Source: a virus. Taken from it: DNA of 64,000 nucleotides. Numbering within the stretch: position 1 is the stretch's first letter; the number at the start of each line of letters is the position of its first letter. The notes under the pieces are model-generated. The model did not search any database and had not been told where the DNA came from. It saw only the letters and a program-made list of their open reading frames with translations. Positions 3,948-50,700 of this stretch are shown here, piece by piece. The stretch lies in IMG/VR virus record IMGVR_UViG_3300011440_000001; one strand, written 5' to 3'. Position numbers and translations under genes: made by a program.

Positions 3948-4802
3948 CTACTCGAACCGTTCGACCTCGCAGACCGAGTTGTTTATCGTGCCGGTGCCCT
4001 GCACGGTCATCGAGATGAACAGCGGATTGACGAAGCCGACTTCCTGCTGCCCGTAGATGTCTCGTGCCTTGCCAGGCGTCGCCGGGCCACCGGTGGAGGT
4101 GTAGTCCTCCAGCACGATCCGGCGCTCGGCGCTACCAGGCGCCACACCCCACACGAAGGGGCTGATGCGCCAGATCTCGCCGCGCTCGCTGAACTCCTTG
4201 GGGCGGATGCTCACCTGGTGGCACGGGTGATACAGATGCCCCTGAATCTCATAGTCGGTTGTGGCATCCGGGACCGTGAGCCACGGGGAGTTCACATATG
4301 CGATTCTGACTGTCGAGACTGTGGTTGGCTCGTAGGCGACGATCTCGCGCTGCTGGCCAGCACCCGTACCCCCAATGAGTTTGATGCGCAGGCCGGGGAA
4401 CCAGTTCCCGTTGGTGCGCTCGCGCACGCCAAGGTTGATGAAGTTCGCCCCGCTGCCAGCCTGGGCCTTCCCGAGGAACGGCTCCGCATGCAACATCGTC
4501 ACCACGTCGAAGGTGTCTTCATCCGCCGGGATCGTCCCGAACCCTGGCGGGTCCACGACGTAGTGCGCTCTGGTGCCGCCCACGTTCGTCTGGTCGATGA
4601 TGCGGAACGCCTTGCCGCGCAACAGGCCGGTCTTGAAGACGATCCAGAGCCCGTTATGGAGCCCCGTCGCGGTGTCTGGGTCGGCGTCGTCTGTTTCGAT
4701 CTCGGTGAGCGTGGGCGCGAAGTTCGACGCCTCCACCGAGCCGGAGGACGTGTCCAGCACGCTGATCGAGAACAGCCTGTGGTTCGTTACTCTCTCTGAC
4801 AC
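3948..4802 (-). CDS. hypothetical virion structural protein
   Basis: 284 aa, GTG start preceded by GAGGGGGAG. Confidence 0.5.
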   Translation of the reverse strand: MSERVTNHRLFSISVLDTSSGSVEASNFAPTLTEIETDDADPDTATGLHNGLWIVFKTGLLRGKAFRIIDQTNVGGTRAHYVVDPPGFGTIPADEDTFDVVTMLHAEPFLGKAQAGSGANFINLGVRERTNGNWFPGLRIKLIGGTGAGQQREIVAYEPTTVSTVRIAYVNSPWLTVPDATTDYEIQGHLYHPCHQVSIRPKEFSERGEIWRISPFVWGVAPGSAERRIVLEDYTSTGGPATPGKARDIYGQQEVGFVNPLFISMTVQGTGTINNSVCEVERFE

Positions 4803-4814
4803 GGTGTCTCCCCC

Positions 4815-5765
4815 TCAGTCGAGATCTGCAATCAGGTCGAATGGCATGACGGCACGCTGGCCCGGAGTGGGCATGTCCAACACGCTGATCCAGTTGTCGC
4901 GCGCCCGCTCGTACTTCGCGTACTTGCCGCTGGCATCTTCATCGGCCGTCTCGACAATATCGGCGCACGCCAGGTAGCGCACGAGGCGCGCCATCATGCG
5001 CGGGAATGGCAGCAGCAGCGCGTAACGGCTCCCCCCGGCAATCGTCGGGGGCGTCGTCCAGACGCTGTCGAGCGTCAGCTCCCGCGTCACCCCGTCGTAA
5101 TCCGTGACCCGCTTGCGCTGGCCGATACCGGTGCCCGCCACGATCTCGATCTCCATGGCGTTGTAGATGTCGTCGATGGGCTCCGCGGGGCGCTGGCCGA
5201 TGCTGTTGGAGAACGTCGATGCCAGCCTCAGCAGGTTCGTAGCGCCAGGGTCTGCTGCCTGGGTGCCGAACAGCAGGTCGGGGATGTCGTGCTCGTACCA
5301 GAGCTTGAGGTTGTTGGCGACGACCCCTGTTGGGGGCGGGTCGAGCAGGATCTTCCGGCCGACGATCTCGTACGTGGTCCTGCCTCCCAGTTGAGTCCCA
5401 TAGTTCGGATACTCGCTGCCCGCCTGGGCCTCGCTCTTCCTGTCCTCCGTGATCGTGACCCACCGGGTGGTGCTGAGGACCTGCGCCCGCACGAGGCGCA
5501 CGAAGTTCACCGGGAGATCGGCGCCCGGCGGGTCAGTCCCGTTGCCGGCCCCCACGGAGAGCAGCGTGGGGGTATCGGCGGTGTGCAGCAGCGTCCGGTA
5601 GCGCTCGTGGGTCTCGAGCACCTCCGCCAAGACATCGTCCTTGGCGCCGTTGATGGCCGGGTAGAGGTACTGCGGGGCGAAGAACGTCGTGGTCAGAGCA
5701 TCCTCGCCGGCCTCGGCCAGGACATCGAGGCCCAACTGGTAGAGATTGCCCCCTACACTCGACAT
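4815..5765 (-). CDS. hypothetical virion structural protein
   Basis: 316 aa, ATG with SD GAAGGGG. Confidence 0.5.
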   Translation of the reverse strand: MSSVGGNLYQLGLDVLAEAGEDALTTTFFAPQYLYPAINGAKDDVLAEVLETHERYRTLLHTADTPTLLSVGAGNGTDPPGADLPVNFVRLVRAQVLSTTRWVTITEDRKSEAQAGSEYPNYGTQLGGRTTYEIVGRKILLDPPPTGVVANNLKLWYEHDIPDLLFGTQAADPGATNLLRLASTFSNSIGQRPAEPIDDIYNAMEIEIVAGTGIGQRKRVTDYDGVTRELTLDSVWTTPPTIAGGSRYALLLPFPRMMARLVRYLACADIVETADEDASGKYAKYERARDNWISVLDMPTPGQRAVMPFDLIADLD

Positions 5766-7146: not shown

Positions 7147-8448
7147 TTACGGCTCTGCGAGGTCCCTGATGCGGCCCCAAGCGTTGCTCTGCTTGATGCC
7201 GATGTTCATGTAGGTCCCGTAGGCCAGCTCGGCCACGTCGCGGTGCGGGAGCCTTTCCCCGCCAGCGACCTTGTCGATGCTGCCCCACGGCTTGACGATG
7301 AACCGGCAGATCTGGGCCAGGTTGCCCATGTAGATCTCGCGCAGCGGCGCCTGGCGATCGATGAAGAACTTCTTGCCGTTCCAATCGATCTCCGTGTAGC
7401 CCAGGTGCAGCTTCGCGCTCAGGTGCTGGACCTGAGGCAGGCCGATCGCGATCAGCTTGCGGCGCTGACCCTTGCCCATGCCGATGAACGTCACTTCCTT
7501 CCCACTGAAGGTCTGGATGGTGTCGTCCATGGACTGCATGAGGTCTTCGGTGATGTTGCGCAGCGTGCCGCCGTTAGCGTCGATGTGACTGCGCCACTCT
7601 GGAGTCGTGGTCCTGTTGATGAACTCCATGATGGCGACCGTGAGGGTGCCGTCATCCACGAGCTGCTGGAGCCCGGTGATTTCGTTGCCCTCGCCGGTGG
7701 CGCCGGTGCCGATGCCCACGTTCTCACGCACCACCACGTTGGTCGCGACCACCGCCGCCTGACCGATCGTGGCCAGGTTGACCGGAGCACCGGCGTTGTC
7801 CACAACATCGAACGTGCGCGCTGCGTAGTTCACGTTGGTGACGTTGAACCCGACATCGAGCGTCGTCTGGTTGGCCGCGCTGTTGCGTGTTACCAGCGTG
7901 GAGGTCCAGAAGTCCACTCGCATCGAGTGACGGATGTACTGCATGTTGCTGTCCGCTGTCAGCGTCACCCTGTCGTTGGTGCCGGCGCCATTGGCGACCG
8001 CCTGGACCGCCCCGAGATTGCCACGACCCGTCCCCCACATCTGGCGAGACATGTCGTTGCGGGCGTACTTCGTCTTGCTCTCGATGGAACGGTCCAGAGC
8101 GTCGAAGAATCCCTTGACACCCTTGGTGATGCTGGCCTCGGTCAGCCCCGTGATCCGCTCGGTGAGGTAGTTCAGCTTCGGGTTGATGCGACCCTGGGCA
8201 CCCCGCAGTGCGATCGAGCCTTCCGGCCCGCCGGGGAGATTGCCGCCTTCGGTCGCAGCACCCACGCTCTCACCGCCGGGGAGCTGCACGGGGAACAGCC
8301 AGTACTTGCCGCCCGAGTCGTAATCCATGGTCTCGTCTCGCTCGAGCAGCTCGAGGAGCATCGGCTCTACGTTCTCCTGCTCCACGATGTAGTTCGCGTA
8401 CCGCTCCTTGGCCATGAAAAGGAGCGCAGTCAGTGTTGACTCAGCCAT
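7147..8448 (-). CDS. major capsid protein (putative)
   Basis: 433 aa, directly downstream of a coiled-coil scaffold-like gene in a TerL-portal-scaffold-capsid order. ATG with SD AGGAG. Confidence 0.6.
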   Translation of the reverse strand: MAESTLTALLFMAKERYANYIVEQENVEPMLLELLERDETMDYDSGGKYWLFPVQLPGGESVGAATEGGNLPGGPEGSIALRGAQGRINPKLNYLTERITGLTEASITKGVKGFFDALDRSIESKTKYARNDMSRQMWGTGRGNLGAVQAVANGAGTNDRVTLTADSNMQYIRHSMRVDFWTSTLVTRNSAANQTTLDVGFNVTNVNYAARTFDVVDNAGAPVNLATIGQAAVVATNVVVRENVGIGTGATGEGNEITGLQQLVDDGTLTVAIMEFINRTTTPEWRSHIDANGGTLRNITEDLMQSMDDTIQTFSGKEVTFIGMGKGQRRKLIAIGLPQVQHLSAKLHLGYTEIDWNGKKFFIDRQAPLREIYMGNLAQICRFIVKPWGSIDKVAGGERLPHRDVAELAYGTYMNIGIKQSNAWGRIRDLAEP

Positions 8449-11405: not shown

Positions 11406-13712
11406 CTACACTGCGCCCATTGGAGGTCCGGCTGGGCTCATCTGCTGGCGCGCAGCAGTCGGGCCGACTGTACCACGACCTCCAGGTTTCCCACTGCGGC
11501 CTGGTGGACCGCCGCCCGGAGGCGCCGCACCAGGTGGCGCTCCCGGTTCTTGCGACTCGCCACCGCCAGCGCCTGCAATCCCGCGCGGCACGCCCGGCGG
11601 CGGCTCAGGTTCCCCGCCAGCCGTCGCATCGGCCATGGCCTCCATGCGCGCTTCCTTGAACATCGCCCCCTGCTGCATCATGACCATGCGCTCCTGCAGC
11701 TCGCGCGCGTGCTCCTCGATCCGCATGCGGATGTCTTCAGAGGAGTTCTCAAAGCTGCTCGTCTTCATGTAGTCCACCGTGACCATGAAGTGGATGGCGA
11801 CGTTGTCGTAGGGGCCGATCTGGACTTCCTCGCCGTCTTCGAGCGCGGCGAGCAGGCTCTCGGCCTTCCTGATGTCGCCAGCGCTCTCGTCAACGAACTT
11901 CTCGTCGCCCACTCCCATCAGCTCGCGGATCCTGATGCGGTTGCGCGGGTCCATGATGTTGATGGCCCCCATGCCAACCAGGTCCACGACGGTCTGGGCC
12001 TTGCTGACCTCGTCCTGGATCGCCTTGGGCTCGGCCTCGATGCGGTAGACGTAGTTGTCGCGCATGTCGGAAGCGCGGAAATACCCGAGCGCCCGCCTGG
12101 ATCCGCGTCCTGGCAGGCTCACCCGGCGCGGGACAGTCCACGCAGGCGAGCGCTGGATGGCGTAGAGCCTGTGGGTCTCCATCTCCTCGTGGTGGCGGTG
12201 CAGGTGCGAGACCTTCGGGGCGAAGCGCACCGACGCTCGCTGGATGAGCTGACGCAGCGCGATACCAGCGCTGATCCCCTGAGGCCGCTCCCCGACCAGG
12301 ACTTGCTTGGAGCCGCTGACGCGCTCGAAGAACTCCTGAATGAACATCTGCATGTCGGCGACATACCCGGCGTCGGCCGGGTGCCGCCCCTGGACGAACT
12401 CCGGCTTCTCGCCGCGCGGGCCGGGTTTGTACTTGTAGATCGCCCCGACGTTCGCCATCAGATCCGCCTCGGTGAATGAGCCCTTTGCTTCTGTGGGGGC
12501 GAGCCAGAAGGGCACGGCCTGGACCTTGCGCGCCAGGGTGTTCTGCGCGACCGCGCTCTCGAGGTGCCGGTTCAGGCTGATGAGCGGATGCACCAGACCG
12601 AGCGACCATGGACTGCCAGGAATCGGCGTGTAGCGACTCTGCGTGATGAGGGACTTTGCCAGCGGCAGCGGCCCGCCGTACATGACCCCAGAACCTGCCA
12701 CCAGGAACAGCCGGCCCTCCGGGTACAGCCTCGACGGTGCGAACTCCACGTGGTGGACAACGATCTGCTTCTCGAAGCTGTTGAACTGCCCCGAACCCCT
12801 GTTCCAGGCGCTCGCCATCCCCGAGGAACTGATCTCGTGGAGCATCATCTCCTGCAGGCGCCACTGCCAGCTCGCGAGGGGATGGTCGCCCATGCTGTCG
12901 CCTACGTGGTCCCTGATGTGCGGGTACTGCTCCTTGAGCGCCTCGACACCCTGGAGCACGTGGACGTGGCGCACGCGCGCGTCAGCAGCGCACGTCGCTC
13001 CTGGGTTGAAGAAGATCTGGATCCCCATCAGCAGGCGCGTCTTGGCATCCGCGAGGGTGAGTTTCGCCTTCGTTGTGGAGCCATCGGGCAGCGGGATGTC
13101 GATCTCGACGGCCTCGTTGGCGTCCTCGTCGATCTCGGTGAGGGTGAACATATCGCCGGCAACGACTGTCCCGAGTACCAGCATCTGCTGCAACTCGTCC
13201 ATCCGGTCGGCGTCCCACTTGAACTGGCGGATGCGTTCTGCGACATCGGCGCCGAGGCGGTCGTAGGGGGCGTTGCTATTGGGGATGACGTGGCCCGTGA
13301 CGATGCCCTTGTTGAGGTCCCCGGCCACCGACTCGACCTTCTCGAGGCACAGGTTGATGGTGGGGCGCGGGATGCGCACGGCCTGCTCGTTCGTGACGAA
13401 ACGCATCCTGCGATCATCGACCCGGAGGTGGTGCTGGCCGATGAACCAGAGCCAGGCTTCGATGGTGCGCGCGTAGACGCGCATGAGGTTGGACTGCGCC
13501 CAGCCGTACTGCTTTTTCACCAGCGCGACGATGTCCTGCTCGAGCACCGGGTGGTCTGATTCCAGCAGGCCGCGCTGGATGGCTCCCTGGAGGCCCCGGT
13601 TGAGGTAATCCGAGTCGATGTGGCTCGAGCCAAGCTGCTGGGCAGAGTCGAGCACCGCGGGCGCGCGCGTGGGGACCGGGGGCATACCGCGAACGACGCT
13701 GGGTGTGGCCAC
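11406..13712 (-). CDS. portal protein (putative)
   Basis: 768 aa, immediately downstream of the terminase nuclease-domain gene. Acidic Gly/Pro-rich C-terminal tail. GTG start with SD AGGAG. Confidence 0.6.
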   Translation of the reverse strand: MATPSVVRGMPPVPTRAPAVLDSAQQLGSSHIDSDYLNRGLQGAIQRGLLESDHPVLEQDIVALVKKQYGWAQSNLMRVYARTIEAWLWFIGQHHLRVDDRRMRFVTNEQAVRIPRPTINLCLEKVESVAGDLNKGIVTGHVIPNSNAPYDRLGADVAERIRQFKWDADRMDELQQMLVLGTVVAGDMFTLTEIDEDANEAVEIDIPLPDGSTTKAKLTLADAKTRLLMGIQIFFNPGATCAADARVRHVHVLQGVEALKEQYPHIRDHVGDSMGDHPLASWQWRLQEMMLHEISSSGMASAWNRGSGQFNSFEKQIVVHHVEFAPSRLYPEGRLFLVAGSGVMYGGPLPLAKSLITQSRYTPIPGSPWSLGLVHPLISLNRHLESAVAQNTLARKVQAVPFWLAPTEAKGSFTEADLMANVGAIYKYKPGPRGEKPEFVQGRHPADAGYVADMQMFIQEFFERVSGSKQVLVGERPQGISAGIALRQLIQRASVRFAPKVSHLHRHHEEMETHRLYAIQRSPAWTVPRRVSLPGRGSRRALGYFRASDMRDNYVYRIEAEPKAIQDEVSKAQTVVDLVGMGAINIMDPRNRIRIRELMGVGDEKFVDESAGDIRKAESLLAALEDGEEVQIGPYDNVAIHFMVTVDYMKTSSFENSSEDIRMRIEEHARELQERMVMMQQGAMFKEARMEAMADATAGGEPEPPPGVPRGIAGAGGGESQEPGAPPGAAPPGGGPPGRSGKPGGRGTVGPTAARQQMSPAGPPMGAV

Positions 13713-20204: not shown

Positions 20205-20280
20205 CGGGGTGTAGCGTAGTGGCCAACGCACTCGCTTTGGGAGCGAGGGACCGGAGGTTCGACTCCTCCCACCCCGACCA
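20205..20280 (+). tRNA. tRNA-Pro (anticodon TGG), CCA encoded
   Basis: Hand-folded cloverleaf. 7-bp acceptor CGGGGTG/CACCCCG. D-arm GCGT/ACGC. Anticodon stem CTCGC/GCGAG with loop TTTGGGA. T-arm GGAGG-TTCGACT-CCTCC. Discriminator A plus CCA. Confidence 0.85.
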
Positions 20281-23554: not shown

Positions 23555-23752
23555 ATGAAGCTACCTCAAGGGCTAGACCCTGACACGATTGTAGAGGCTG
23601 CGGAGTCGGATGACGGTCGTGGTTTTTGTTTAGCGTGTGGTGAGGAGCATTACGACATTGAGCCGGACGCGCGGGAGTATTTGTGCGAGTCCTGTGGTGC
23701 GGATGAAGTCTACGGGGCGGAGGAGTTGTTGTTGATGGGGGCAGCGTCGTGA
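23555..23752 (+). CDS. small zinc-ribbon protein (65 aa)
   Basis: CxxC ... CxxC. SD GAGGGA. First gene after the 23502 promoter. Confidence 0.45.
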   Translation: MKLPQGLDPDTIVEAAESDDGRGFCLACGEEHYDIEPDAREYLCESCGADEVYGAEELLLMGAAS

Positions 23753-24189
23753 GCGCGGGCGCCGCGGTGTGTGAGCGGTGTTTGAGGGGGTACGCGCCGG
23801 TGCGGAAGGTATCGAGTCCGCTGGAAGCTGCGACCTTGTTCAAGACGTTGGCATCGCGCAGGACGGAGGCGTTGCGGGTTGCGTATCTGGATTCGCAGAA
23901 TCAGGTGCTCGCGGTGCGGACGGTATCGGTAGGCTCGCTCAACACGACGCGCACGGCGCCGCGGGAGATTCTACGGCCGGCGATAGAGGCGAACGCCCTT
24001 GGGTTCATTCTTGCGCACAATCACCCATCTGGGAGTGTGCGGCCATCGCAGGACGACATTGACTTCACGCGAGTGGTGAAGCGAGCAGGGGAGATGATGG
24101 GGATCTCGCTCTACGACCACGTGATCATCGCGAAGCAGAAGGGGCGGCCGTTGTCATGGGTGAGCCTGAAGGAAGAGGGGCACCTGTGA
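23749..24189 (+). CDS. radC: RadC-like JAB/MPN domain protein
   Basis: JAMM-like motif …AHNHPSG… with conserved upstream Glu and downstream Ser/Asp. Confidence 0.6.
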   Translation: MSAGAAVCERCLRGYAPVRKVSSPLEAATLFKTLASRRTEALRVAYLDSQNQVLAVRTVSVGSLNTTRTAPREILRPAIEANALGFILAHNHPSGSVRPSQDDIDFTRVVKRAGEMMGISLYDHVIIAKQKGRPLSWVSLKEEGHL

Positions 24190-24395
24190 GGCCTGGGCAT
24201 CTTACACCGATTATCAGGCACGTCGCGGTGTGTTGTGGGCAAGACGTTGTGTGTGAGTTGCAGGTCAACGTCTGTCCGACGTGCGGTGTTACCTACGACT
24301 GGGCGGCACGACGGATTCGCGGGCGTGTGGTTGATGCGGATGCGGTGTTGGCTCCGGTCTATGAATTCCCGAGCGGGAATCGGAGGGCACAGTGA
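24186..24395 (+). CDS. small Cys-rich protein (69 aa, GTG start overlapping upstream stop)
   Basis: GTGA overlap. CC ... C ... CxxC. Confidence 0.3.
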   Translation: MRPGHLTPIIRHVAVCCGQDVVCELQVNVCPTCGVTYDWAARRIRGRVVDADAVLAPVYEFPSGNRRAQ

Positions 24396-24832
24396 TCAGC
24401 GCGCGGCGGGGGCCGTACACGTTCGATGAGGCTGTGGCGATGGTGCGCGGGGCGGGGTTCACACACGTTCTCACGATGGCTGGGCCGACGCCCGTTGCCG
24501 AATGGTCTCCTTACGGTCAGGCGCGCGGCGAGCGGTATCGGGTTCGCGTGGACATTGTGAAGGGGCGTGTGTACGACGAGCCCCCGGAGCACTGTCCGCC
24601 GGGGTTCGGTCTAGGCGTGTGGACGCTGTTGTGGCTCGACGAGGCCGCCGGCGCGCTCGATCCGGACAACGCGATGGCCTACGTCTCGATGCTGCGTCGC
24701 GCGCACGAGCTGGGGGCGTTCCGTCAGGTGATCTTCGTTTCGCACAGTCAGGAAGTCTGGGAGGCGGCCGACGCGCGCCTCTTCGTCGCCGACGGGCGGG
24801 TCACTACAACTCTTCAGAGGGAGGCCGCATGA
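24392..24832 (+). CDS. hypothetical protein with ABC/SMC-ATPase C-terminal-like motifs (Walker B, D-loop, H-loop) but no Walker A
   Basis: TLLWLDEAAGALD followed by VIFVSHS. No P-loop or signature motif. Confidence 0.35.
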   Translation: MISARRGPYTFDEAVAMVRGAGFTHVLTMAGPTPVAEWSPYGQARGERYRVRVDIVKGRVYDEPPEHCPPGFGLGVWTLLWLDEAAGALDPDNAMAYVSMLRRAHELGAFRQVIFVSHSQEVWEAADARLFVADGRVTTTLQREAA

Positions 24833-25599
24833 AGATCGAGATCAAATCTTGGTGGACCGGCAACGTGCTGATCGAGGTAGAGGCCGACTCGATCCGCGCG
24901 GCGCTGGAGATCGCCGTCGGAAAGAAAACCGACCTCAGGGGCGCCGACCTCAGGGGCGCCGACCTCAGGGGCGCCCACCTCAGGGGCGCCGACCTCAGGG
25001 ACGCCGACCTCAGGGACGCCGACCTCAGGGACGCCGACCTCAGGGACGCCGACCTCAGGGGCGCCGACCTCAGGGACGCCGACCTCAGGGACGCCGACCT
25101 CAGGGGCGCCGACCTCAGGGACGCCGACCTCAGGGGCGCCGACCTCGGGGGCGCCGACCTCGGGGGCGCCGACCTCGGGGGCGCCGACCTCAGGGACGCC
25201 GACCTCAGGGACGCCGACCTCAGGGACGCCGACCTCAGGGGCGCCCACCTCAGGGACGCCGACCTCAGGGGCGCCCACCTCAGGGACGCCGACCTCAGGG
25301 GCGCCCGTCTGGAGACCGGAGAGACGATGGCTCAGTACATCGAGAGCGTCGTGCCGGCGCTGTGCACGGCTGGAGGGCGCACGATCGAGGAAGTCGCCAC
25401 CGCGTGGAACTGCCACGACTGGGGCAACTGCCCGATGCACGTGGCGTTCAACGGCGCGGAGAGTCCCGACGATCCGCGCGTGCCGATGTTGCTGCGCCCG
25501 CGCGTGCATCAGTTCGTGCGGCTGTTCGACGCGCGGCTACTGCCGAATCCGCTGGGGGAGAAGGCGTCGCCCGCGTGCCCGGTCACGCCAGGCCAATGA
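24829..25599 (+). CDS. pentapeptide-repeat protein (about 27 tandem A(D/N)LRx pentapeptides)
   Basis: N-terminal ~30-aa globular cap, then (ADLRG/ADLRD)n, then a ~95-aa C-terminal domain. SD GAGGGAGG. Confidence 0.65.
   Translation: MKIEIKSWWTGNVLIEVEADSIRAALEIAVGKKTDLRGADLRGADLRGAHLRGADLRDADLRDADLRDADLRDADLRGADLRDADLRDADLRGADLRDADLRGADLGGADLGGADLGGADLRDADLRDADLRDADLRGAHLRDADLRGAHLRDADLRGARLETGETMAQYIESVVPALCTAGGRTIEEVATAWNCHDWGNCPMHVAFNGAESPDDPRVPMLLRPRVHQFVRLFDARLLPNPLGEKASPACPVTPGQ
24931..25305. repeat. near-perfect 15-bp DNA tandem repeat (gacctcagggRcgcc) x~25 within the pentapeptide gene
   Basis: Direct reading. Units differ by 1-2 nt. Confidence 0.85.
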
Positions 25600-26120
25600 G
25601 CGTCCCGCAGGGCACCATCGCGCGCCAGCGCACTGACCTCGACCGCCTCCGCTGCGATCTCGCCGCGGCCCGCAGGGAAGCGGAGGCCAACGGTGCCACC
25701 GTGAAGGCCCAGCAGGCGGAGATCGGCAAGGCGCGCGCGCATCTCGCACACGCTCGAAGAGGAGGCTGGGTCATGAGGCTCCCGAAGCTCTATCCCTACC
25801 TGATCACGTACCGGCGGGGCGCGCGGCGGATTGGCTTCGGGATCCGCTTTTACCCGACCGACGCCGCGGCGAGCGAGGACGCGAGCCGACTCATCCCCAC
25901 GCTCGTTCCGCGCGCCCTGGAGATCCGCACGCGCGCGGTGCATCTGTGCTTGCACGCCGATCCGCCGTGTCCGTGGGCGAAGGACCGGGAGATCATGGGC
26001 GCGGCACACGCGATTGTTGACCGCATCACGGGAACGATCCTCGATGAGGAGCCCGACACCATCGTCCATTGGATAGCCGAAGAACTCAGCAAGCGCAGAT
26101 CACCAAGGGAGGGCAAATGA
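25596..26120 (+). CDS. hypothetical protein (174 aa)
   Basis: ATGA overlap with the pentapeptide gene stop. N-terminal coiled-coil-like segment. Confidence 0.4.
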   Translation: MSVPQGTIARQRTDLDRLRCDLAAARREAEANGATVKAQQAEIGKARAHLAHARRGGWVMRLPKLYPYLITYRRGARRIGFGIRFYPTDAAASEDASRLIPTLVPRALEIRTRAVHLCLHADPPCPWAKDREIMGAAHAIVDRITGTILDEEPDTIVHWIAEELSKRRSPREGK

Positions 26121-26545
26121 ACAACAAACGCATGACCCAGCTCATCGAGGCGATCCGCAGCGAGGCAGGGCGCAACATGTTCGATTTCTCTTACTTCACC
26201 CGCGTGCCGGAGGGGGCGAAACCAGTACACGAAGCGTTCAAGGCGGGGGGCACGTGCGGGACCACGGCGTGTATCGCAGGCATGGCCAAGGCGGTCGCTA
26301 TCATCAACGGTGACGAGCCTGCTGGTGGCCCCACCATCAGCCACTTCTGGTTGTCTGACTGGCTCGGGATATCGCTGTCGCACGCGAATCAAATCTGCTA
26401 CCCCGAGAATATTGCGTTGTGGCCGCGGTGTTGGCAGACGAAGGCGTTGGAGGCTGCGGACGTGCTGGAGCACTATCAGGCAACGGGGCGGCTGGAGCAC
26501 CCCTACCCCCCCACCCCTACCCAATACCCCAGGGAGCGCAAATGA
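26117..26545 (+). CDS. hypothetical protein, tandem paralog A (142 aa)
   Basis: ATGA overlap. Shares motif MF-F/M-S…EAF-AGG-CGTT-CI-GMA with the next gene. Confidence 0.45.
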   Translation: MNNKRMTQLIEAIRSEAGRNMFDFSYFTRVPEGAKPVHEAFKAGGTCGTTACIAGMAKAVAIINGDEPAGGPTISHFWLSDWLGISLSHANQICYPENIALWPRCWQTKALEAADVLEHYQATGRLEHPYPPTPTQYPRERK

Positions 26546-27003
26546 ACGAGACACGGCTCAAAGCATTGTCGGCGGCGCTGCGGACAGAGACGGCGGCGAA
26601 GATGTTCCACATGGCGTCTTGGGTACAGGAAGGCGAGCGCGCTCTGCCGGAGGCGTTTGCAGCGGGCGGGGGCTGCGGCACGACGGGTTGCATTCTCGGG
26701 ATGGCTGCGGCTATCGACCCGATCAGCCTCACGGCCTTCTTCGGCGACCACCGCAACTACGGAACGGTCGCGCTCAAAGCCAATCCGAGGGTGTCGGGCG
26801 CGGAAGCCTTCTCTCGCTGGCTCGACATCGACTTCTACGACGCGACGGAACTGTGCGGCGTTGGGGGCGGCGTCTGGGAGCGGTGGGGCGACCTTGGGAG
26901 CGTGCCCGCGAGCCTCGCCGCCGACGTGCTCGACGCCTACGCGCAGGGGGGCATCGCCGCGGCGCGCGAGGTTGCCAACTACGGGGCGGGGGGGGCACTC
27001 TGA
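26542..27003 (+). CDS. hypothetical protein, tandem paralog B (153 aa)
   Basis: ATGA overlap. Paralogous to 26117..26545. Confidence 0.45.
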   Translation: MNETRLKALSAALRTETAAKMFHMASWVQEGERALPEAFAAGGGCGTTGCILGMAAAIDPISLTAFFGDHRNYGTVALKANPRVSGAEAFSRWLDIDFYDATELCGVGGGVWERWGDLGSVPASLAADVLDAYAQGGIAAAREVANYGAGGAL

Positions 27004-27542: not shown

Positions 27543-27559
27543 CTGAGCATTTGGGGTTT

Positions 27560-27646
27560 CCCGGCGTGGTGGAATGGCAAACACAGCGGCCCTTAGGTGC
27601 CGCTGGGCTGTAATGGCCCATGCGGGTTCGACTCCCGCCGCCGGGA
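27560..27646 (+). tRNA. type-II tRNA-Leu(UAG)-like gene with 8-nt anticodon loop (CCUUAGGU); no encoded CCA
   Basis: Perfect 7-bp acceptor CCCGGCG/CGCCGGG. 3-bp D-stem. 5-bp anticodon stem GCGGC/GCCGC with an 8-nt loop. Long variable arm GGGC…GCCC. T-arm GCGGG-TTCGACT-CCCGC. Confidence 0.45.
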
Positions 27647-27684
27647 TCAAACGCATCAATTCGGCAAAGGGGGGGGGCGGGTAG

Positions 27685-36561: not shown

Positions 36562-36668
36562 CGGAAGGTGGCGTGGTGACTGTCGCGGTGCCGCGTTTCG
36601 CAGAGGGCGCGGGGCTCGGACCTGCCCACGAGCATGCACACGCCCGACAGTCACCACCAGGAACATGA

Positions 36669-36744
36669 TGCGGGGAGGTGCCCTGGTGGGCATGGATGGC
36701 TCATAACCATCACGTGGTCGGTTCGATTCCGACCCCCGCTACCA
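36669..36744 (+). tRNA. tRNA with anticodon CAU (Met or Ile2-type), CCA encoded; unusual U1·U72 mismatch
   Basis: Hand-folded. D-arm GTGC/GCAT. Anticodon stem GATGG/CCATC, loop CTCATAA. T-arm GTCGG-TTCGATT-CCGAC. Acceptor positions 2-7 paired. Confidence 0.65.
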
Positions 36745-47237: not shown

Positions 47238-47734
47238 CCAGCGCCTCCAGGAAGTGCTGGCGTTGAGGTCACGAAGTTACCGGCAATGCGGTCGAGCTTG
47301 TCGGCGAGCAACTTGTACTGCGCGAACGGATCCAGGGGCTTGCCGTCGATGCTGCTCAGCTCGAAGTGTACCGGGTCGCCCCAGTCAGCACCGCAGCGCA
47401 AGCCGATCTCGCGCGCCAGATCGATCACGCGCTGTTGCTTGGCGTTCTTGTCGGCGCGGTCCTTCGCGTTGGTGATGCCGGCGTCGAAGGCTGCGGCTTT
47501 GCCGTTGTAGAAGGGATGGTGACGCGACAGGCCCACGGGGGCAGGCTGCGCGACGACACCGTACTTGGTGCGCGCCACGCCTGGGTTGCGCCTCCAGGTC
47601 TCGTAGAGCACTGCCTGGTAGCCGTACCCACGAGCGCCGGATGTCTTGGCGATGCTGATGCCTTCGGCGGCGGCGCGGGATTCCAATTCGTTAGCTTTTG
47701 TACCGAGTTCAGGGAGAAGGTCTGCTACGTCCAC
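47234..47734 (-). CDS. endolysin, peptidase M15 (VanY / L-Ala-D-Glu peptidase)-like
   Basis: Zn-ligand-like motifs SRHHPFYNGKAAAFD and DPVHFE. GTG with SD AGGAGGG. Overlaps the 3' end of the giant gene. Confidence 0.5.
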   Translation of the reverse strand: MDVADLLPELGTKANELESRAAAEGISIAKTSGARGYGYQAVLYETWRRNPGVARTKYGVVAQPAPVGLSRHHPFYNGKAAAFDAGITNAKDRADKNAKQQRVIDLAREIGLRCGADWGDPVHFELSSIDGKPLDPFAQYKLLADKLDRIAGNFVTSTPALPGGAG

Positions 47735-50700
47735 GTCCGCGCCCTCCTGCGCCGTACATCTGCTGCAGTCCGGGGCGGACCCCCTGGAGGCCGATTGGCT
47801 GGCGGTATCCTACCGCACTTCGGGCCAGCGCGTCTGCCTCTGCCCGAAGCCGCTCTTTCTCTTCGCCTCCCGCCACGTGCTCGCGCTTCCTGAGGCGGTT
47901 TACCTGCTCGACAGTGTTGCGCAGCCGCGGAAGGGCCTTGAGTGCATCGACGTGCTCCTCGCGGAACCTCTTGGCCCGCACCTCGTCGCGCATCTCGCCG
48001 GTGGTGTAGAACGTGAGAGTCGCGTGTGCATTGGCGGCGTCCATGTACTGCTCGTAGAGCTGACGCACCGGCTCGGTGTTGAACGGCGTGACGTAGTGGA
48101 ACACCCTGCCGATGCCGGTGGTCCCAGGGCTCAGGTCGTAGCGCTCCGGCGTGATCCCCGCCTTGGCGCCAGCGAGTTCTGCCCAGTCGATGATTTCCGT
48201 TCCAAGGCCGGGGACGTACCCAGAGATGAGGTTCTCGACCTTCGCAGGCGAGGTCAGCATCTCAATCTCCTTGAGCCCTGGCAGTGAACCCATCAGATCT
48301 GCGATGGCCTTGGCGGTGTTGGAGGTGCTGACGTAGTACTGGGCCTCTGGGAGCCGGCGCTCCTGTGACCCGCTGACGATCTTGGTGTTGGAGTAGCCCC
48401 TCCAGTTGGCGTAGTTCTGGATGATGGGGGCCAGCAGCGTCGGGGTTGGGTCCGGTATGCTGCGCCACATCTCCGCCGCCCACGCCTCGAACGCCCCGGG
48501 ATCTTCGTGGCGTGCCCACTCGAAGAGCGCCTCGAGCGATGTCGCGAACGCCAGGCCGAACTCGTGAGGCTTCGGCATCTGGTACCAGCCGCCGTTGGGC
48601 AACGGGATCATCCAGTACCTGGTCCTGATGTGGATCGGGATCGAGTCGAAGTCCTTCTCGCGCTCGAGAGCGTGGCGCAGCAGCACCAGGGCGATCGTCG
48701 GCAGGGTGATGCCCAGCACCGCGTTTCTCCAGGCGGTCGAGCGCGTCTTCGGGTCGGTGAAGGTATCTACGGACATCTTCCAGCCGAGCACGTTTGGTTT
48801 GAAGAACGCGCTGGTGACGGCCCACTTCTTGGCCCACGCTCCGCCCTGGGCGAAGTCGATCGTCACCATCCTGCCGGCGTAGCCCACGCGGATCATGTCG
48901 TCTTCCGTGGCGATGGTATCGGCGCCCATGGCGCGCATCTCGGTGAGCCGCGGGGCCATCTCAACAGCCATACCGAACTGCCGCATCACGTCGAGGACCC
49001 CGTTCGCCCAGCGCACCGGGGAAGTCGGATGCAGAGCGACGAGCTGCCGGACCTTGGCCATCTTTCCCCTGGCTGCCGTGCTGTAGGGCTTCGAGCTGAT
49101 GTGCTTGAGGATGAACTTCTCCATCTGCAGCGGGTCCAGCGACAGGAAGTGCGCCATGCTCGCGTAGGTTCCAGGCCCGCGCACCAGCAGTTCATCCATC
49201 TCGGTAGGGGTGATGCTGTTCCATCTGGCGACGAGCCCCTTGACCTTGCTGTGCTTGTCGATCCGCTCGAGGATCGAGCGGGCGAAGTCGGTCCCGATCA
49301 GCGCCATCCCAAAGTTCTTCGGGACATGGCGGATCTTGGCATCTTTCTGGGTCCTGACCTTCATGGCGAAGAGGTCGCGGGCCTGCCTCGCCCAGAACGG
49401 CGGCCACAGGACAATGCTCTCGCGCATGATGCGGGCGGCCGGCCCGAACAGCCAGCTCAGGATGGACACGTCCCCGCCGTCCAGGCCGAGCATCGCCTGG
49501 TAGGTCTGCTCCTCGCTCTCGCGGAACTGGAAGTACTTCTTCTTGCCACCGATCCACGCCGAGATGGTGCGCTTGCGAGGGTCGCGGCTGCTCGGCATCC
49601 AGAAGGTGAGCACGTCATCGAGCAGGTCAACATCGCCGCCGATCATATCGACCAGTTCTTTGGGCGACACTCCAAGGGCCTCGGCGATACGCGCGAAGGG
49701 GATCTTCGCCGGCTCAACCGGCGGTGGGACCTCGTTGCCCCAGCGCGCTACCTCCGGGTGGCTGCGGGCGAGCCTGATGAGCAACTGCCCCACGCGGTTG
49801 CCTTCCACGGACGCCATCAGATCGCGAGTCTGCTTGAGGGTGCTCTGAATCGGCGAGACGATGGGCCACACACCGCCTTCACGGCGGTAGATGCCCTTGG
49901 CGCGCCCTGCGAACTTCGCCGCGCCGCTTCCAGAAGCCTGGTCGGCCTCGATGAACTCCCTCCAGCGCATCAGCGGGGTGTAGACCTCGTTCATGTTCTT
50001 GATCCTGATGTACTGCGCGCGCGTGAGGAACCCCGCCTTCCAGCGGAACCGCAGCAGCCAGTTGTTGTACTCCTGGTACTTGTCGTATGCCTGCTTCATG
50101 GCGTCGTCAACGGCGTGGCGGGCCAGGACGGAATCGACCTCCTTGCCGGTGAGCCCGGTGTAGCGCTCGGGGCTCCATCCCCGCGTGCGCCTCAGGTAGT
50201 CGGCCTCGCGCGCCACGAAGTACAGGTCGATCTCGGTGATGGCGCGGTCGGCCACCGACCCGAGCGCTTGCTTCAGGCTGATGCCACGGCCCACCTCGTA
50301 GCTGGCCCCGTACTCCCAGGTGTCGGTCAGGATCGCGCGCATCGTCAGGCCATCTCGGGCCGCCTGTGTCGTGGCGATCATCCTGAGGTCCTCGGTGGGG
50401 TCGGGCACTGGCGCGCCCTCTCTCACCAGGGCATCGCCCAGCTTCTTGACGCTGTCGAGCGAGTCCAGGAAGCGGTACATGAACTTCTGCCACTTGGTGG
50501 GGAATGGGTTGTCGCCGGGGTAGTGCAGGTGGGTCATGGCGCGGGCGTACTCCGGGCTGGCGTCCCATGCCTGCTGGACGGAACGCGCCCAATCGACCAT
50601 GTCCTGAAGCTCTGGGAACTCGCGCACGGTTGCCGCCCAGATGGCAGAGAGTGTCGGCGCGCGGCGCTGCGCCTCCGCCGGGTCCTCCACCGTCAGGCGC

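What the first reader, a model, noticed from the sequence alone, without database searches (positions are those of the whole stretch)
24829..25599. Early-expressed pentapeptide-repeat protein built from ~25 near-identical 15-bp DNA repeats: DNA-mimic anti-defence candidate and slippage-prone locus
The protein is essentially (ADLRG/ADLRD)n flanked by short globular ends. Pentapeptide-repeat proteins (Qnr/MfpA type) fold into a right-handed quadrilateral beta-helix that mimics B-DNA. Here it is co-transcribed with RadC right after the early promoter, where phages usually place anti-restriction functions. The repeats are almost identical at the nucleotide level (gacctcagggRcgcc). This implies recent expansion and makes repeat-number variation by slippage or recombination likely. 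The ORFs shown on both strands and in other frames across this tract (24814..25509, 24849..26120) are repeat artifacts.
Basis: partly seen in the sequence, partly recalled or inferred. Interest (0 to 1): 0.65.

Follow-up and report, generated by a model that had tools for sequence, protein, structure and literature searches.

The report
Phage pentapeptide protein with variable repeat number
A real phage gene encodes a pentapeptide-repeat rod whose length changes between otherwise near-identical phages (6, 14 or 26 repeats), attached to a conserved end domain of unknown fold; the repeat instability is well supported, but the proposed DNA-mimic anti-defence role is not.

Summary
Window 24829-25599 (+) is a real 256-aa gene with 25 near-identical 15-bp units, (ADLRG/ADLRD)n, between a 33-aa N-cap and a 97-aa C-terminal domain.

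The slippage prediction is strongly supported. Ten independent assemblies of the same ~66-kb phage (99.6-100% identical flanks) carry 6, 14 or 26 units. Six 26-unit alleles have 8 segregating sites in the 375-bp array and none in the next 2.5 kb.

The gene belongs to a metagenome-only phage family of at least 313 clusters, defined by the C-terminal domain. That domain is helical with a W.CH.W.NCPM motif and matches nothing in Pfam, NCBIfam, PHROGs, PDB or BFVD. Family arrays span about 1 to 29+ units and are homogenised within each genome.

The DNA-mimic anti-defence reading is not supported:
- The same phage exists with only 1.5 helix coils.
- Family arrays are not consistently acidic.
- Qnr and MfpA models score far below their cutoffs.
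- RadC adjacency is a recent rearrangement.
- No early promoter was detected.

Best reading: the conserved C-domain is the working module, carried on a length-unstable solenoid. Function is unknown. The AlphaFold model of the expanded array was inconclusive.

The parts
24829..25599 (+). Pentapeptide-repeat protein gene (256 aa plus stop)
   Evidence: ORF with an ATG start and GGGAGG at 24819-24824. Pfam PF00805 E = 8e-50. Homologues start at the same MKIEIK. dN/dS of the non-repeat ends is 0.20-0.27.
24829..24927 (+). N-terminal cap (residues 1-33, MKIEIKSWWTGNVLIEVEADSIRAALEIAVGKK): two beta strands plus a helix
   Evidence: AlphaFold pLDDT 91-96; strands at residues 2-7 and 13-18, helix at 22-31. 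The same cap occurs in many family members and in Ralstonia phage PQ43W gp58.
24928..25317 (+). Array of 25 near-identical 15-bp units plus a degenerate terminal unit (ARLET); in-frame variable-number tandem repeat
   Evidence: TRF: 25.1 copies, 94% match. Unit order is ebbfaaaabaababcccaaabdbdbg. Alleles of 6, 14 and 26 units occur in the same phage. There are 8 segregating sites in 375 bp against 0 in 2,500 bp downstream. The longest exact internal repeat is 74 bp.
25306..25596 (+). Conserved C-terminal domain (97 aa) that defines the family; motifs TGET..Y...VPAL.TAGG, W.CH.W.NCPM..AF, LLRPR..QF..LFDA
   Evidence: Profile searches find 210 clusters at 90% identity and 313 clusters at 50% identity. 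AlphaFold pLDDT is 87.5, with four helices. There is no match in Pfam, NCBIfam, PHROGs, PADLOC, PDB or BFVD. Invariant and near-invariant residues include W34, C36, H37, W39, C42, P43 and D75 of the domain.
24392..24832 (+). Upstream ORF (146 aa) whose last 70 residues are a remnant of an ~820-aa SbcC/SMC-like ATPase
   Evidence: 74% identity to residues 751-820 of the ATPase directly upstream of the homologous gene in L004. A full-length copy is also present in L005. The L004 protein matches phrog_77, the SbcC-like family, at E = 2.6e-48.
23749..24189 (+). RadC-like JAB-domain gene in the same co-directional block; a neighbour specific to this lineage
   Evidence: Pfam PF04002 E = 1.3e-35. 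It is present in L001 and the other assemblies of this phage, but absent from L004 and L005.
25596..26120 (+). Downstream gene (174 aa), start overlapping the PRP stop codon by ATGA; its first ~53 residues are conserved next to the PRP gene in relatives
   Evidence: tblastn: 100% identity over residues 1-53 in L005 and 61% in L004. A 1-nt indel splits it into 59-aa and 115-aa genes in L166 and L167.

Best explanation
This is a functional accessory gene of a ~66-kb tailed phage. It belongs to a phage family, known only from metagenomes, that is defined by a conserved ~85-97-aa helical C-terminal domain.

The protein has three parts: a small N-terminal cap, a pentapeptide-repeat solenoid and the C-terminal domain.

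The solenoid is encoded by near-identical 15-bp units. Because the unit length is a multiple of three, in-register slipped-strand mispairing or unequal recombination between identical units adds or removes whole units without breaking the frame. Gene-conversion-like exchange shuffles the three variable nucleotides among units. All three specify outward-facing residues. The result is a rod whose length and surface change much faster than the rest of the genome, and each lineage's array is repeatedly re-homogenised (concerted evolution).

The C-terminal domain, with its near-invariant W.CH.W.NCPM motif, is inferred to be the working or binding module. The solenoid is inferred to be a length-tolerant scaffold or spacer, and not a calibrated DNA mimic.

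Shown: gene reality, family membership, the length polymorphism, the array hot spot, purifying selection on both ends, and the lack of a conserved partner gene.

Inferred: the slippage or recombination mechanism, the beta-helix fold of the expanded array, and the division of labour between the domains.

Unknown: the molecular target.
For: - Same phage, different array lengths. Ten assemblies are 99.65-100% identical to the window over 5-7.6 kb and carry 6, 6, 14, 26 (x6) and at least 20 units. The 26-unit allele was recovered from both ENA and JGI data, with one identical array string in both.
- The short alleles can be derived from a 26-unit allele by one or two in-register deletions between identical units.
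- Among six 26-unit alleles there are 8 segregating sites in 375 bp of array, 0 in 2,500 bp downstream and 1 in 679 bp upstream. All 8 lie at unit positions 4, 10 and 14 (Fisher p = 6e-7 for one pair).
- No synonymous variation exists among the 25 units. L004 uses GCG for Ala in every unit while the window and L005 use GCC, which indicates concerted evolution.
- Family-wide, every array is a 15-bp DNA tandem repeat with 81-100% unit identity.
- 10 of 12 near-identical protein pairs differ in length.
- 12 of 35 viral contigs begin inside the repeat array.
- The C-domain is the constant feature. It is found in 313 clusters at 50% identity, in proteins of 73-430 aa, and it is also fused to a different ~19-aa repeat in L079 and L039.
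- dN/dS of the N-cap plus C-domain is 0.27 and 0.20.
- The variable residues are pentapeptide positions 2, 4 and 5, which face outward in the PRP fold (PMC10886550).
Against: - No experiment or structure ties the C-domain to any activity, and its fold has no known relative.
- AlphaFold gave pLDDT 44-51 for residues ~55-145 of the array, and the full model matched nothing in the PDB. The beta-helix of the expanded array therefore rests on sequence homology to solved PRPs.
- The short alleles come from short-read MEGAHIT assemblies. Collapse is unlikely, because those arrays are shorter than k = 141 and assemblers usually break at such arrays, but it was not excluded with reads.
- Long arrays of 20-29+ units are common in the family, so solenoid length could matter functionally.
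- The window's array is moderately acidic (net -12, pI 4.5).
Confidence: 0.6

Rival explanations
1. DNA-mimic anti-defence protein. The acidic beta-helix imitates B-DNA and titrates a DNA-binding host enzyme, such as a type I restriction enzyme, gyrase or another nucleic-acid sensor, early in infection.
For: - Canonical PRP repeats with homology to solved PRPs, including Qnr and MfpA.
- The window array has net charge -12 and pI 4.5.
- 26 units make about 6.5 coils, similar to a Qnr or MfpA monomer. Those proteins dimerise through C-terminal helices (PMC10886550), so the C-domain could be a dimeriser.
- Family members sit among orphan methylases, ParB_N and recombination genes in early or accessory regions, as does orf232 of phage L, which lies beside ral.
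Against: - The same phage (99.7-99.8% identical flanks) exists with 6 units, about 1.5 coils, which is too short to imitate a DNA segment.
- Family arrays run from 1 to at least 29 units. Net charge per unit spans -1.0 to +0.62 (median -0.11), and several arrays are net basic.
- Qnr and MfpA models score 50.8 and 62 bits against cutoffs of 240 and 360.
- There is no PADLOC hit.
- McbG and QnrB did not inhibit BREX, and the authors conclude that mimicry alone is not sufficient (PMC7261183).
- No literature links phage PRPs to anti-restriction.
Confidence: 0.15
2. Selected contingency locus. Array length and surface are not neutral. They are kept hypermutable because different lengths adapt the protein to different host targets, or let it escape recognition by a host defence.
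For: - Three length alleles coexist in related samples.
- Polymorphism is concentrated in the array, at outward-facing residues only.
- Homogenised arrays occur in every lineage of the family.
- The allele lengths 6, 14 and 26 differ by multiples of four units, that is by whole coils. 6 of 10 close pairs change by multiples of four (binomial p = 0.02).
Against: - Hypermutability follows automatically from identical tandem units and needs no selection.
- With only about 4 underlying mutational differences, 'all nonsynonymous' is not significant.
- Spacing between the N-cap and the C-domain shows no preference modulo 20 residues across 92 family members (chi-square p = 0.34).
- No phenotype data exist.
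Confidence: 0.15
3. Assembly artefact. The differences in unit number, or the 26-unit array itself, are produced by short-read assembly of a repeat.
For: - All contigs are short-read metagenome assemblies (k141 MEGAHIT or JGI).
- Contigs often break inside these arrays.
Against: - The longest exact internal repeat is 74 bp, shorter than k = 141 and shorter than typical reads.
- The 26-unit allele was assembled seven times, and the identical unit string appears in ENA and JGI data (L170 = L172).
- The 6-unit arrays (90 bp) are shorter than one k-mer.
- Whole-contig lengths of 66,471, 66,295 and 66,173 bp track array length.
- Cultured Ralstonia phage PQ43W has a comparable array of 26 x 15 bp.
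Confidence: 0.04
4. Functionless or decaying passenger. After loss of the adjacent SbcC-like ATPase the gene is no longer needed, and the array drifts freely.
For: - The upstream ATPase is reduced to a 70-aa remnant in this lineage.
- The array in this lineage ranges widely in length.
Against: - The non-repeat ends are identical in all assemblies of this phage and are under purifying selection relative to L005 and L004 (dN/dS 0.27 and 0.20).
- There are no frameshifts or stop codons in any allele.
- ATPase linkage is confined to one sub-clade and is not family-wide.
Confidence: 0.06

Closest known systems
Qnr / MfpA / McbG / AlbG pentapeptide-repeat proteins (topoisomerase-protecting DNA or T-segment mimics)
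   Same: Tandem A(D/N)LXX pentapeptides. Sequence homology to solved members: 3pss at 7e-13, 2bm4 at 2e-11 and 6zt4 at 2e-11. An acidic array of similar length in the 26-unit allele.
   Different: - Scores are far below the family cutoffs.
- There are no Qnr-type loops.
- The terminal domains differ: an N-cap plus a 97-aa helical C-domain with no known relative.
- Array length varies from 6 to 26 units within one phage.
- It is phage-borne and has no known link to gyrase.
Structural PRPs of cyanobacteria and designed derivatives (Np275/Np276 2j8k, HetL 3du1, Alr5209 6omx, 'beta1' designs 4yfo/4yc5)
   Same: These are the best sequence matches (2e-42 to 3e-18), covering residues 33-183. They have regular repeats without loops, which is the basis for inferring the right-handed quadrilateral beta-helix.
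   Different: They have fixed repeat numbers, their repeats are not near-identical at the DNA level, and they lack the C-domain. NCBIfam equivalog cutoffs are not reached (113 bits against 125 for Alr5209, 92 against 260 for HetL).
orf232 of Salmonella phages L and ST64T (P22-like, early left operon)
   Same: A phage pentapeptide-repeat gene of unknown function in an early operon beside recombination and anti-restriction genes. The two >99.9% identical phages differ by one 15-bp repeat unit, in frame (PMC8022706).
   Different: It has 15 imperfect repeats and a single-unit difference was reported. No homology to the C-domain was found in any deposited phage. Here the differences are 8-20 units, among at least three alleles.
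Ralstonia phage PQ43W gp58 (PP405626.1, 40372-41172)
   Same: The same N-terminal cap (60% identity over residues 1-48) and almost the same array architecture: 26.2 copies of a 15-bp unit at 94% match, in a 266-aa protein.
   Different: A different C-terminal domain with a W.H.ACGTTHCRAGH motif, and a different genomic position, in a small + strand insert between head genes.
In-frame intragenic tandem-repeat (VNTR / contingency) loci of bacteria, for example the tolA repeat tract
   Same: Repeat units that are a multiple of 3 bp, and copy-number variation among close strains through slippage or recombination (PMC3477136, listed).
   Different: This is a phage gene. The repeat encodes a folded solenoid, not a flexible linker. 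No phenotype has been linked to length.

Membership tests
Pentapeptide-repeat proteins (Pfam PF00805; Rfr fold) | Tandem pentapeptides A(D/N)LXX, with a small residue at position 1 and Leu/Phe at position 3 | tested here: met
   PF00805 E = 8e-50, 166 bits against a cutoff of 20.2. All 25 units have Ala or Thr at position 1 and Leu at position 3.
Pentapeptide-repeat proteins (Pfam PF00805; Rfr fold) | Right-handed quadrilateral beta-helix with four units per coil | tested here: inconclusive
   AlphaFold with the family alignment gave pLDDT 44-51 for residues ~55-145, because relatives leave those alignment columns empty. The model has no PDB match. The fold is inferred only from homology to solved PRPs at 2e-42.
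Qnr family | Score at or above the NCBIfam Qnr cutoff; about 214-218 aa with loops A and B | tested here: not met
   NF033086 scores 50.8 bits against a cutoff of 240, and all Qnr subfamily models fall below 52 bits against cutoffs of 425-500. The repeats are uninterrupted.
MfpA | Score at or above the NCBIfam MfpA cutoff; associated with the mfp conservon | tested here: not met
   NF000349 scores 62 bits against a cutoff of 360. The context is a phage, with no MfpB-like GTPase.
Qnr/MfpA-type function | Binds gyrase or topoisomerase IV and protects it from poisons | not testable with these tools
   Requires biochemistry.
DNA-mimic anti-restriction proteins (Ocr, ArdA type) | Extended, strongly and regularly acidic surface of fixed geometry | tested here: inconclusive
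   The window array is net -12 (35 acidic and 23 basic residues, pI 4.5). Family arrays range from -1.0 to +0.62 per unit, and the same phage has a 6-unit allele with net charge 0. There is no sequence relation to Ocr or ArdA.
Family defined here by the C-terminal domain (N-cap, PRP array, C-domain) | C-terminal ~85-aa domain with the motifs VPAL.TAGG, W.CH.W.NCPM..AF and RPR..QF..FDA | tested here: met
   Profile hits: 210 clusters at 90% identity and 313 clusters at 50% identity, 240 of them at E <= 1e-10. Invariant residues are listed. The window protein is the seed of the profile, so its own match is by construction.
Family defined here by the C-terminal domain (N-cap, PRP array, C-domain) | Phage-borne | tested here: met
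   There are 35 IMG/VR viral loci. The window encodes a major head protein and a portal. No deposited phage or plasmid carries the domain.
In-frame variable-number tandem repeat (contingency-type) locus | Copy number differs among otherwise near-identical genomes, always in frame | tested here: met
   6, 14 and 26 units in assemblies that are 99.65-100% identical in the flanks, and every allele is an open reading frame.
In-frame variable-number tandem repeat (contingency-type) locus | Length change alters a phenotype under selection | not testable with these tools
   There are no phenotype data. A test for conserved rotational register across the family was negative (p = 0.34).

The most novel reading that the evidence does not exclude
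A phage-specific protein family displays a C-terminal domain of a previously undescribed fold on a beta-solenoid. The length and outer surface of that solenoid are continually reset by intra-array recombination. Under this reading the array acts as an in-frame contingency locus: it lets a phage population pre-adapt an interaction with a host target, or evade a host defence that senses the protein. This would be a viral counterpart of bacterial phase-variable and VNTR loci.
Probability: 0.15. Interest if true: 0.7.

Novelty: new variant of a known kind. Interest (0 to 1): 0.45.

Why it matters
Pentapeptide-repeat proteins are common in phages but almost none has a known role. This analysis contributes three things.

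1. **A distinct family.** It defines a phage family by a conserved, structurally unplaced C-terminal domain.
2. **A natural length polymorphism.** The solenoid part is a population-level length polymorphism (6, 14 or 26 units in one phage) and the most variable stretch of its neighbourhood.
3. **A database bias.** Such arrays break short-read assemblies, so protein databases under-represent long alleles.

Together these give a natural allelic series for testing whether solenoid length matters. They are also a caution against reading every phage PRP as a DNA mimic.

Tried and rejected
1. **Window as a length outlier.** The first protein search suggested this: the top 120 relatives are all 175 aa or shorter, with a median of 6 units. 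I rejected it. Viral contigs hold many arrays of 20-29+ units, the exhaustive search finds members up to 430 aa, and 12 of 35 viral contigs start inside the array, so the databases are censored.
2. **Functional coupling to an SMC/SbcC-like ATPase.** The ATPase is adjacent in L004 and L005, leaves a remnant in the window, and a different AAA_23 gene lies nearby in L002 and L017. This is not family-wide, and all-against-all BLAST of 35 neighbourhoods found no conserved partner.
3. **Structure of the whole protein.** The array part of the model has low confidence, and Foldseek against the PDB found nothing.
5. **Rosetta-stone link.** I tested a link between the PQ43W C-domain (CGTTHCRAG motif) and the window's downstream paralogues (CGTTACIAG motif). 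The pairwise E-value is only 0.016 over 21 residues, and the last homology search returned only the query itself.
6. **Whole-coil rule.** Length changes in multiples of 4 units are suggestive in close pairs (p = 0.02) but absent family-wide (p = 0.34).
7. **AGG rare-codon idea.** AGG makes up 14% of Arg codons in 22 other genes of the phage, so it is not especially rare here.
8. **Positive selection on the variable sites.** There are too few independent mutations to test this.
9. **Host identification via reference genomes.** Two scans yielded only two MAG contigs.
Full report
**1. The observation**

Tandem Repeats Finder reports a single array at 24929-25305: period 15, 25.1 copies, 94% matches, no indels, score 628. 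The ORF 24829-25599 (+) encodes 256 aa: MKIEIKSWWTGNVLIEVEADSIRAALEIAVGKK, then 25 pentapeptides, ARLET, and a 92-aa tail.

GGGAGG lies at 24819-24824. The start and stop codons overlap the neighbouring genes by ATGA. Pfam Pentapeptide PF00805 matches at E = 8e-50.

In codon register the units are 10 ADLRD, 8 ADLRG, 3 ADLGG, 2 AHLRD, 1 AHLRG and 1 TDLRG. All share one backbone, GCC-NAC-CTC-RGG-GRC. Only unit positions 4, 10 and 14 vary. All three changes are nonsynonymous, and no third codon position varies in any of the 25 units.

The alternative-frame ORFs are artefacts of the repeat, with one exception: the 3' part of ORF 24849-26120 is the real downstream gene 25596-26120.

**2. The genome**

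The window is a tailed phage.
- Major head protein at 7147-8448 (-) and a portal at 11406-13712 (-).
- A 3,618-aa polyvalent protein with Strawberry-notch helicase and LPD38 domains at 47709-58565 (-).
- A Ro60/TROVE gene at 29832-31190.
- GC content about 65%.

A GC3-based gene map shows a + strand block from about 23.5 to 44.9 kb between two - strand arms. The PRP gene is the fifth gene of that block. No deposited phage resembles the region at the DNA level.

A consensus scan finds no + strand sigma-70-like promoter and no + strand terminator between 23.5 and 27 kb. Co-transcription with RadC (23749-24189, PF04002) is therefore plausible, but 'early' is inferred from position only.

**3. The family**

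A search with the C-terminal 97 aa alone found relatives with the same architecture but different repeat numbers. A profile of that domain finds 210 clusters at 90% identity. An exhaustive HMMER scan of 1.84 billion representatives finds 313 clusters at 50% identity, 240 of them at E <= 1e-10, with lengths of 73-430 aa and the domain nearly always at the C-terminus.

Invariant or near-invariant residues of the domain include Y11, P17, A18, L19, G23, G24, W34, C36, H37, W39, N41, C42, P43, M44, A47, F48, P60, F70 and D75.

The family is essentially viral and uncultured:
- 35 IMG/VR loci carry it.
- Only two MAG contigs among the pattern hits in reference genomes are true relatives.
- Nothing was found in 50,697 deposited phages or 72,556 plasmids.

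In L079 and L039 the same C-domain follows a different ~19-aa repeat. This marks the C-domain as the constant module.

**4. Repeat-number variation, the decisive result**

The protein encoded about 500 bp downstream (26117-26545) occurs unchanged on many contigs. Fetching ten of them gave independent assemblies of the same ~66-kb phage, 99.65-100% identical to the window over 5-7.6 kb. L168 is identical to the window.

Unit strings, where a = ADLRD, b = ADLRG, c = ADLGG, d = AHLRD, e = TDLRG, f = AHLRG, A = ADLGD and g = ARLET:

| Assembly | Units | Unit string |
|---|---|---|
| Window = L168 | 26 | ebbfaaaabaababcccaaabdbdbg |
| L169 | 26 | ecbdaaaabaabdbcAaaaabdbdbg |
| L170 (ENA) = L172 (JGI) | 26 | ecbdaaaababbdbcAaaaabdbdbg |
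| L171 | 26 | ecbdaaaabaabdbcccaaabdbdbg |
| L173 (JGI) | 26 | ecbdabaabaabdbcAaaaabdbdbg |
| L167 | 14 | ecbdbaaabdbdbg |
| L166 | 6 | ecbdbg |
| L165 = L001 | 6 | ecfdbg |
| L174 | at least 20 | contig starts inside the array |

L166 equals L169 minus units 4-23, which is one deletion between identical d units. L167 needs one or two such events. Whole-contig lengths of 66,471, 66,295 and 66,173 bp track array length.

Among the six 26-unit alleles there are 8 segregating sites in 375 bp of array, 0 in the next 2,500 bp and 1 in 679 bp upstream. All 8 lie at unit positions 4, 10 and 14.

A more distant relative, L005 (96% identical C-domain), has 14 units with Asn variants on the same codon backbone. 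L004 (84% identical) has 4-5 units that all use GCG for Ala where the window uses GCC. This is the pattern expected from concerted evolution.

Across the family:
- Every array is a 15-bp DNA tandem repeat with 81-100% unit identity.
- 10 of 12 near-identical protein pairs differ in length.
- 12 of 35 viral contigs begin inside the repeat. Long arrays are therefore under-represented in protein databases, which explains why the first search made the window look like an outlier.

Assembly artefact is unlikely:
- The longest exact internal repeat is 74 bp.
- The 26-unit allele recurs in two data sources.
- The 6-unit arrays are shorter than one 141-mer.
- Cultured Ralstonia phage PQ43W has a 26.2 x 15-bp array of the same kind.

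There is a literature precedent. Phages L and ST64T are more than 99.9% identical yet differ by one 15-bp pentapeptide unit in the early-left-operon gene orf232 (PMC8022706).

**5. Selection**

The N-cap and C-domain are identical in all assemblies of this phage. Relative to L005 and L004 they give dN/dS of 0.27 and 0.20. The gene is functional and is not decaying. The three variable unit positions encode pentapeptide residues 2, 4 and 5, which face outward in the PRP fold, while the inward-facing residues 1 and 3 are invariant (geometry from PMC10886550). There are too few independent mutations to claim positive selection.

**6. Neighbourhood**

RadC adjacency is recent. L004 and L005 have an ~820-aa SbcC-like ATPase directly upstream (phrog_77, E = 2.6e-48). 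The window's upstream ORF 24392-24832 keeps only its last 70 residues, at 74% identity.

No neighbour family is conserved across the 35 loci. The recurring theme is the early, accessory and recombination region of often-temperate phages: integrase, orphan methylases, Mom, ParB_N, RecT, ERF, YqaJ and RusA.

**7. The DNA-mimic hypothesis**

In favour:
- Canonical PRP repeats homologous to solved PRPs, including Qnr and MfpA.
- The window array is net -12 with pI 4.5.
- About 6.5 coils, comparable to a Qnr or MfpA monomer.
- The genomic context is of the kind where anti-restriction genes sit.

Against:
- The same phage functions with 6 units, which is 1.5 coils with net charge 0.
- Family arrays span 1 to at least 29 units. 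Net charge per unit runs from -1.0 to +0.62 (median -0.11), and several arrays are basic.
- Qnr and MfpA models score 51 and 62 bits against cutoffs of 240 and 360.
- There is no defence or anti-defence library hit.
- PRP 'DNA mimics' McbG and QnrB did not block BREX (PMC7261183).
- No paper in the library links phage PRPs to anti-restriction.

The N-cap and C-domain are confident, while residues ~55-145 have pLDDT 44-51 because relatives leave those alignment columns empty. The model matches nothing in the PDB.

**8. Conclusion**

This is a real phage gene. It is a member of a previously undescribed C-domain-defined family of pentapeptide-repeat proteins. Its solenoid is an in-frame variable-number tandem repeat that changes by whole units and by exchange among units much faster than the flanking genome.

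The most economical mechanism is slipped-strand mispairing or unequal recombination between identical 15-bp units. The conserved C-domain would be the working module and the solenoid a length-tolerant scaffold.

Whether length is selected remains open, as does the identity of the target. The local pattern of whole-coil differences (p = 0.02 in close pairs) is not seen family-wide (p = 0.34).

I rate it a new variant of a known kind, of moderate interest.

Noticed in passing
window 29561-29683 (+), next to 29832-31190 (+): A YrlA-like (bacterial Y RNA) match lies directly upstream of a phage Ro60/TROVE-vWA gene. It scores 37.8 bits, E = 4.8e-6, below the Rfam gathering score of 69. The pairing suggests a phage-encoded Ro60-Y RNA module.
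   Followed up: partly
window 27559-27648 (+): A tRNA-like element. ARAGORN calls a 90-nt 'tRNA-???' with a 4-base anticodon, ttag. Rfam tRNA scores 47.4 bits in a local scan, but the element was not reported in the whole-window gathering scan. It could be a suppressor or frameshift-type tRNA, or a tRNA-like part of a Y RNA.
   Followed up: partly
window 47709-58565 (-): A 3,618-aa ORF with gene-like GC3 (0.83) carries Strawberry-notch helicase (AAA_34, Helicase_C_4) and LPD38 domains. It is a 'large polyvalent protein' of the kind that some phages and conjugative elements use against host defences.
   Followed up: partly
window 24392-24832 (+): This ORF is a chimera. Residues 77-146 are the C-terminal end (Walker B to the C-terminus) of an SbcC/SMC-like ATPase that is full length (820-831 aa) in relatives L004 and L005. 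Residues 1-76 are unrelated. It records a deletion or replacement that brought RadC next to the PRP gene.
   Followed up: yes
window 25596-26120 (+); L166 2981-3504, L167 2981-3504: The downstream gene is a single 174-aa ORF in the window and in most assemblies. A 1-nt indel splits it into 59-aa and 115-aa genes in L166 and L167. Only the first ~53 residues are conserved next to the PRP gene in L004 and L005.
   Followed up: partly
window 26117-26545 and 26542-27003 (+); L164 4001-4801: Two adjacent paralogous small genes carry a GG.CGTT.CI.GMA motif. The PRP of Ralstonia phage PQ43W has a C-terminal domain with a similar WHNACGTTHCRAGH motif behind a 26-unit array. The pairwise similarity is marginal (E = 0.016), so the link is unproven.
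   Followed up: partly
L079 about 3950-5040 (+); L039 1-408: The family's C-terminal domain also occurs behind a different repeat type of ~19-20 residues (LPNAKTADLSGCTGLTEVE-like), in an Acidobacteriaceae MAG contig and in one viral contig.
   Followed up: no
L012-L014, L016-L020, L029, L036, L037, L039, L157, L174 (contig ends): Many metagenomic contigs begin inside the repeat array: 12 of the 35 viral loci, plus one MAG contig and one contig of this phage. Short-read assemblies break at these arrays, and long alleles are under-counted in protein databases.
   Followed up: yes
window 24928-25317 and the alleles in L165-L173: The three allele lengths (6, 14 and 26 units) differ by 8, 12 and 20 units, all multiples of four, which means whole beta-helix coils. 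6 of 10 close pairs in the family also change by multiples of four (p = 0.02), but spacing across 92 family members shows no such register (p = 0.34). This is unexplained.
   Followed up: yes
window 24929-25305: The array concentrates palindromic restriction-type sites. It holds 22 of the window's 37 CCTNAGG sites and 13 of its 90 GGCGCC sites within 377 bp. The significance is unknown.
   Followed up: no
window 36667-36744 (+): ARAGORN calls a tRNA-Met (CAT) here, but the Rfam gathering scan of the whole window did not report it. Only tRNA-Pro at 20205-20277 was confirmed by both tools.
   Followed up: no
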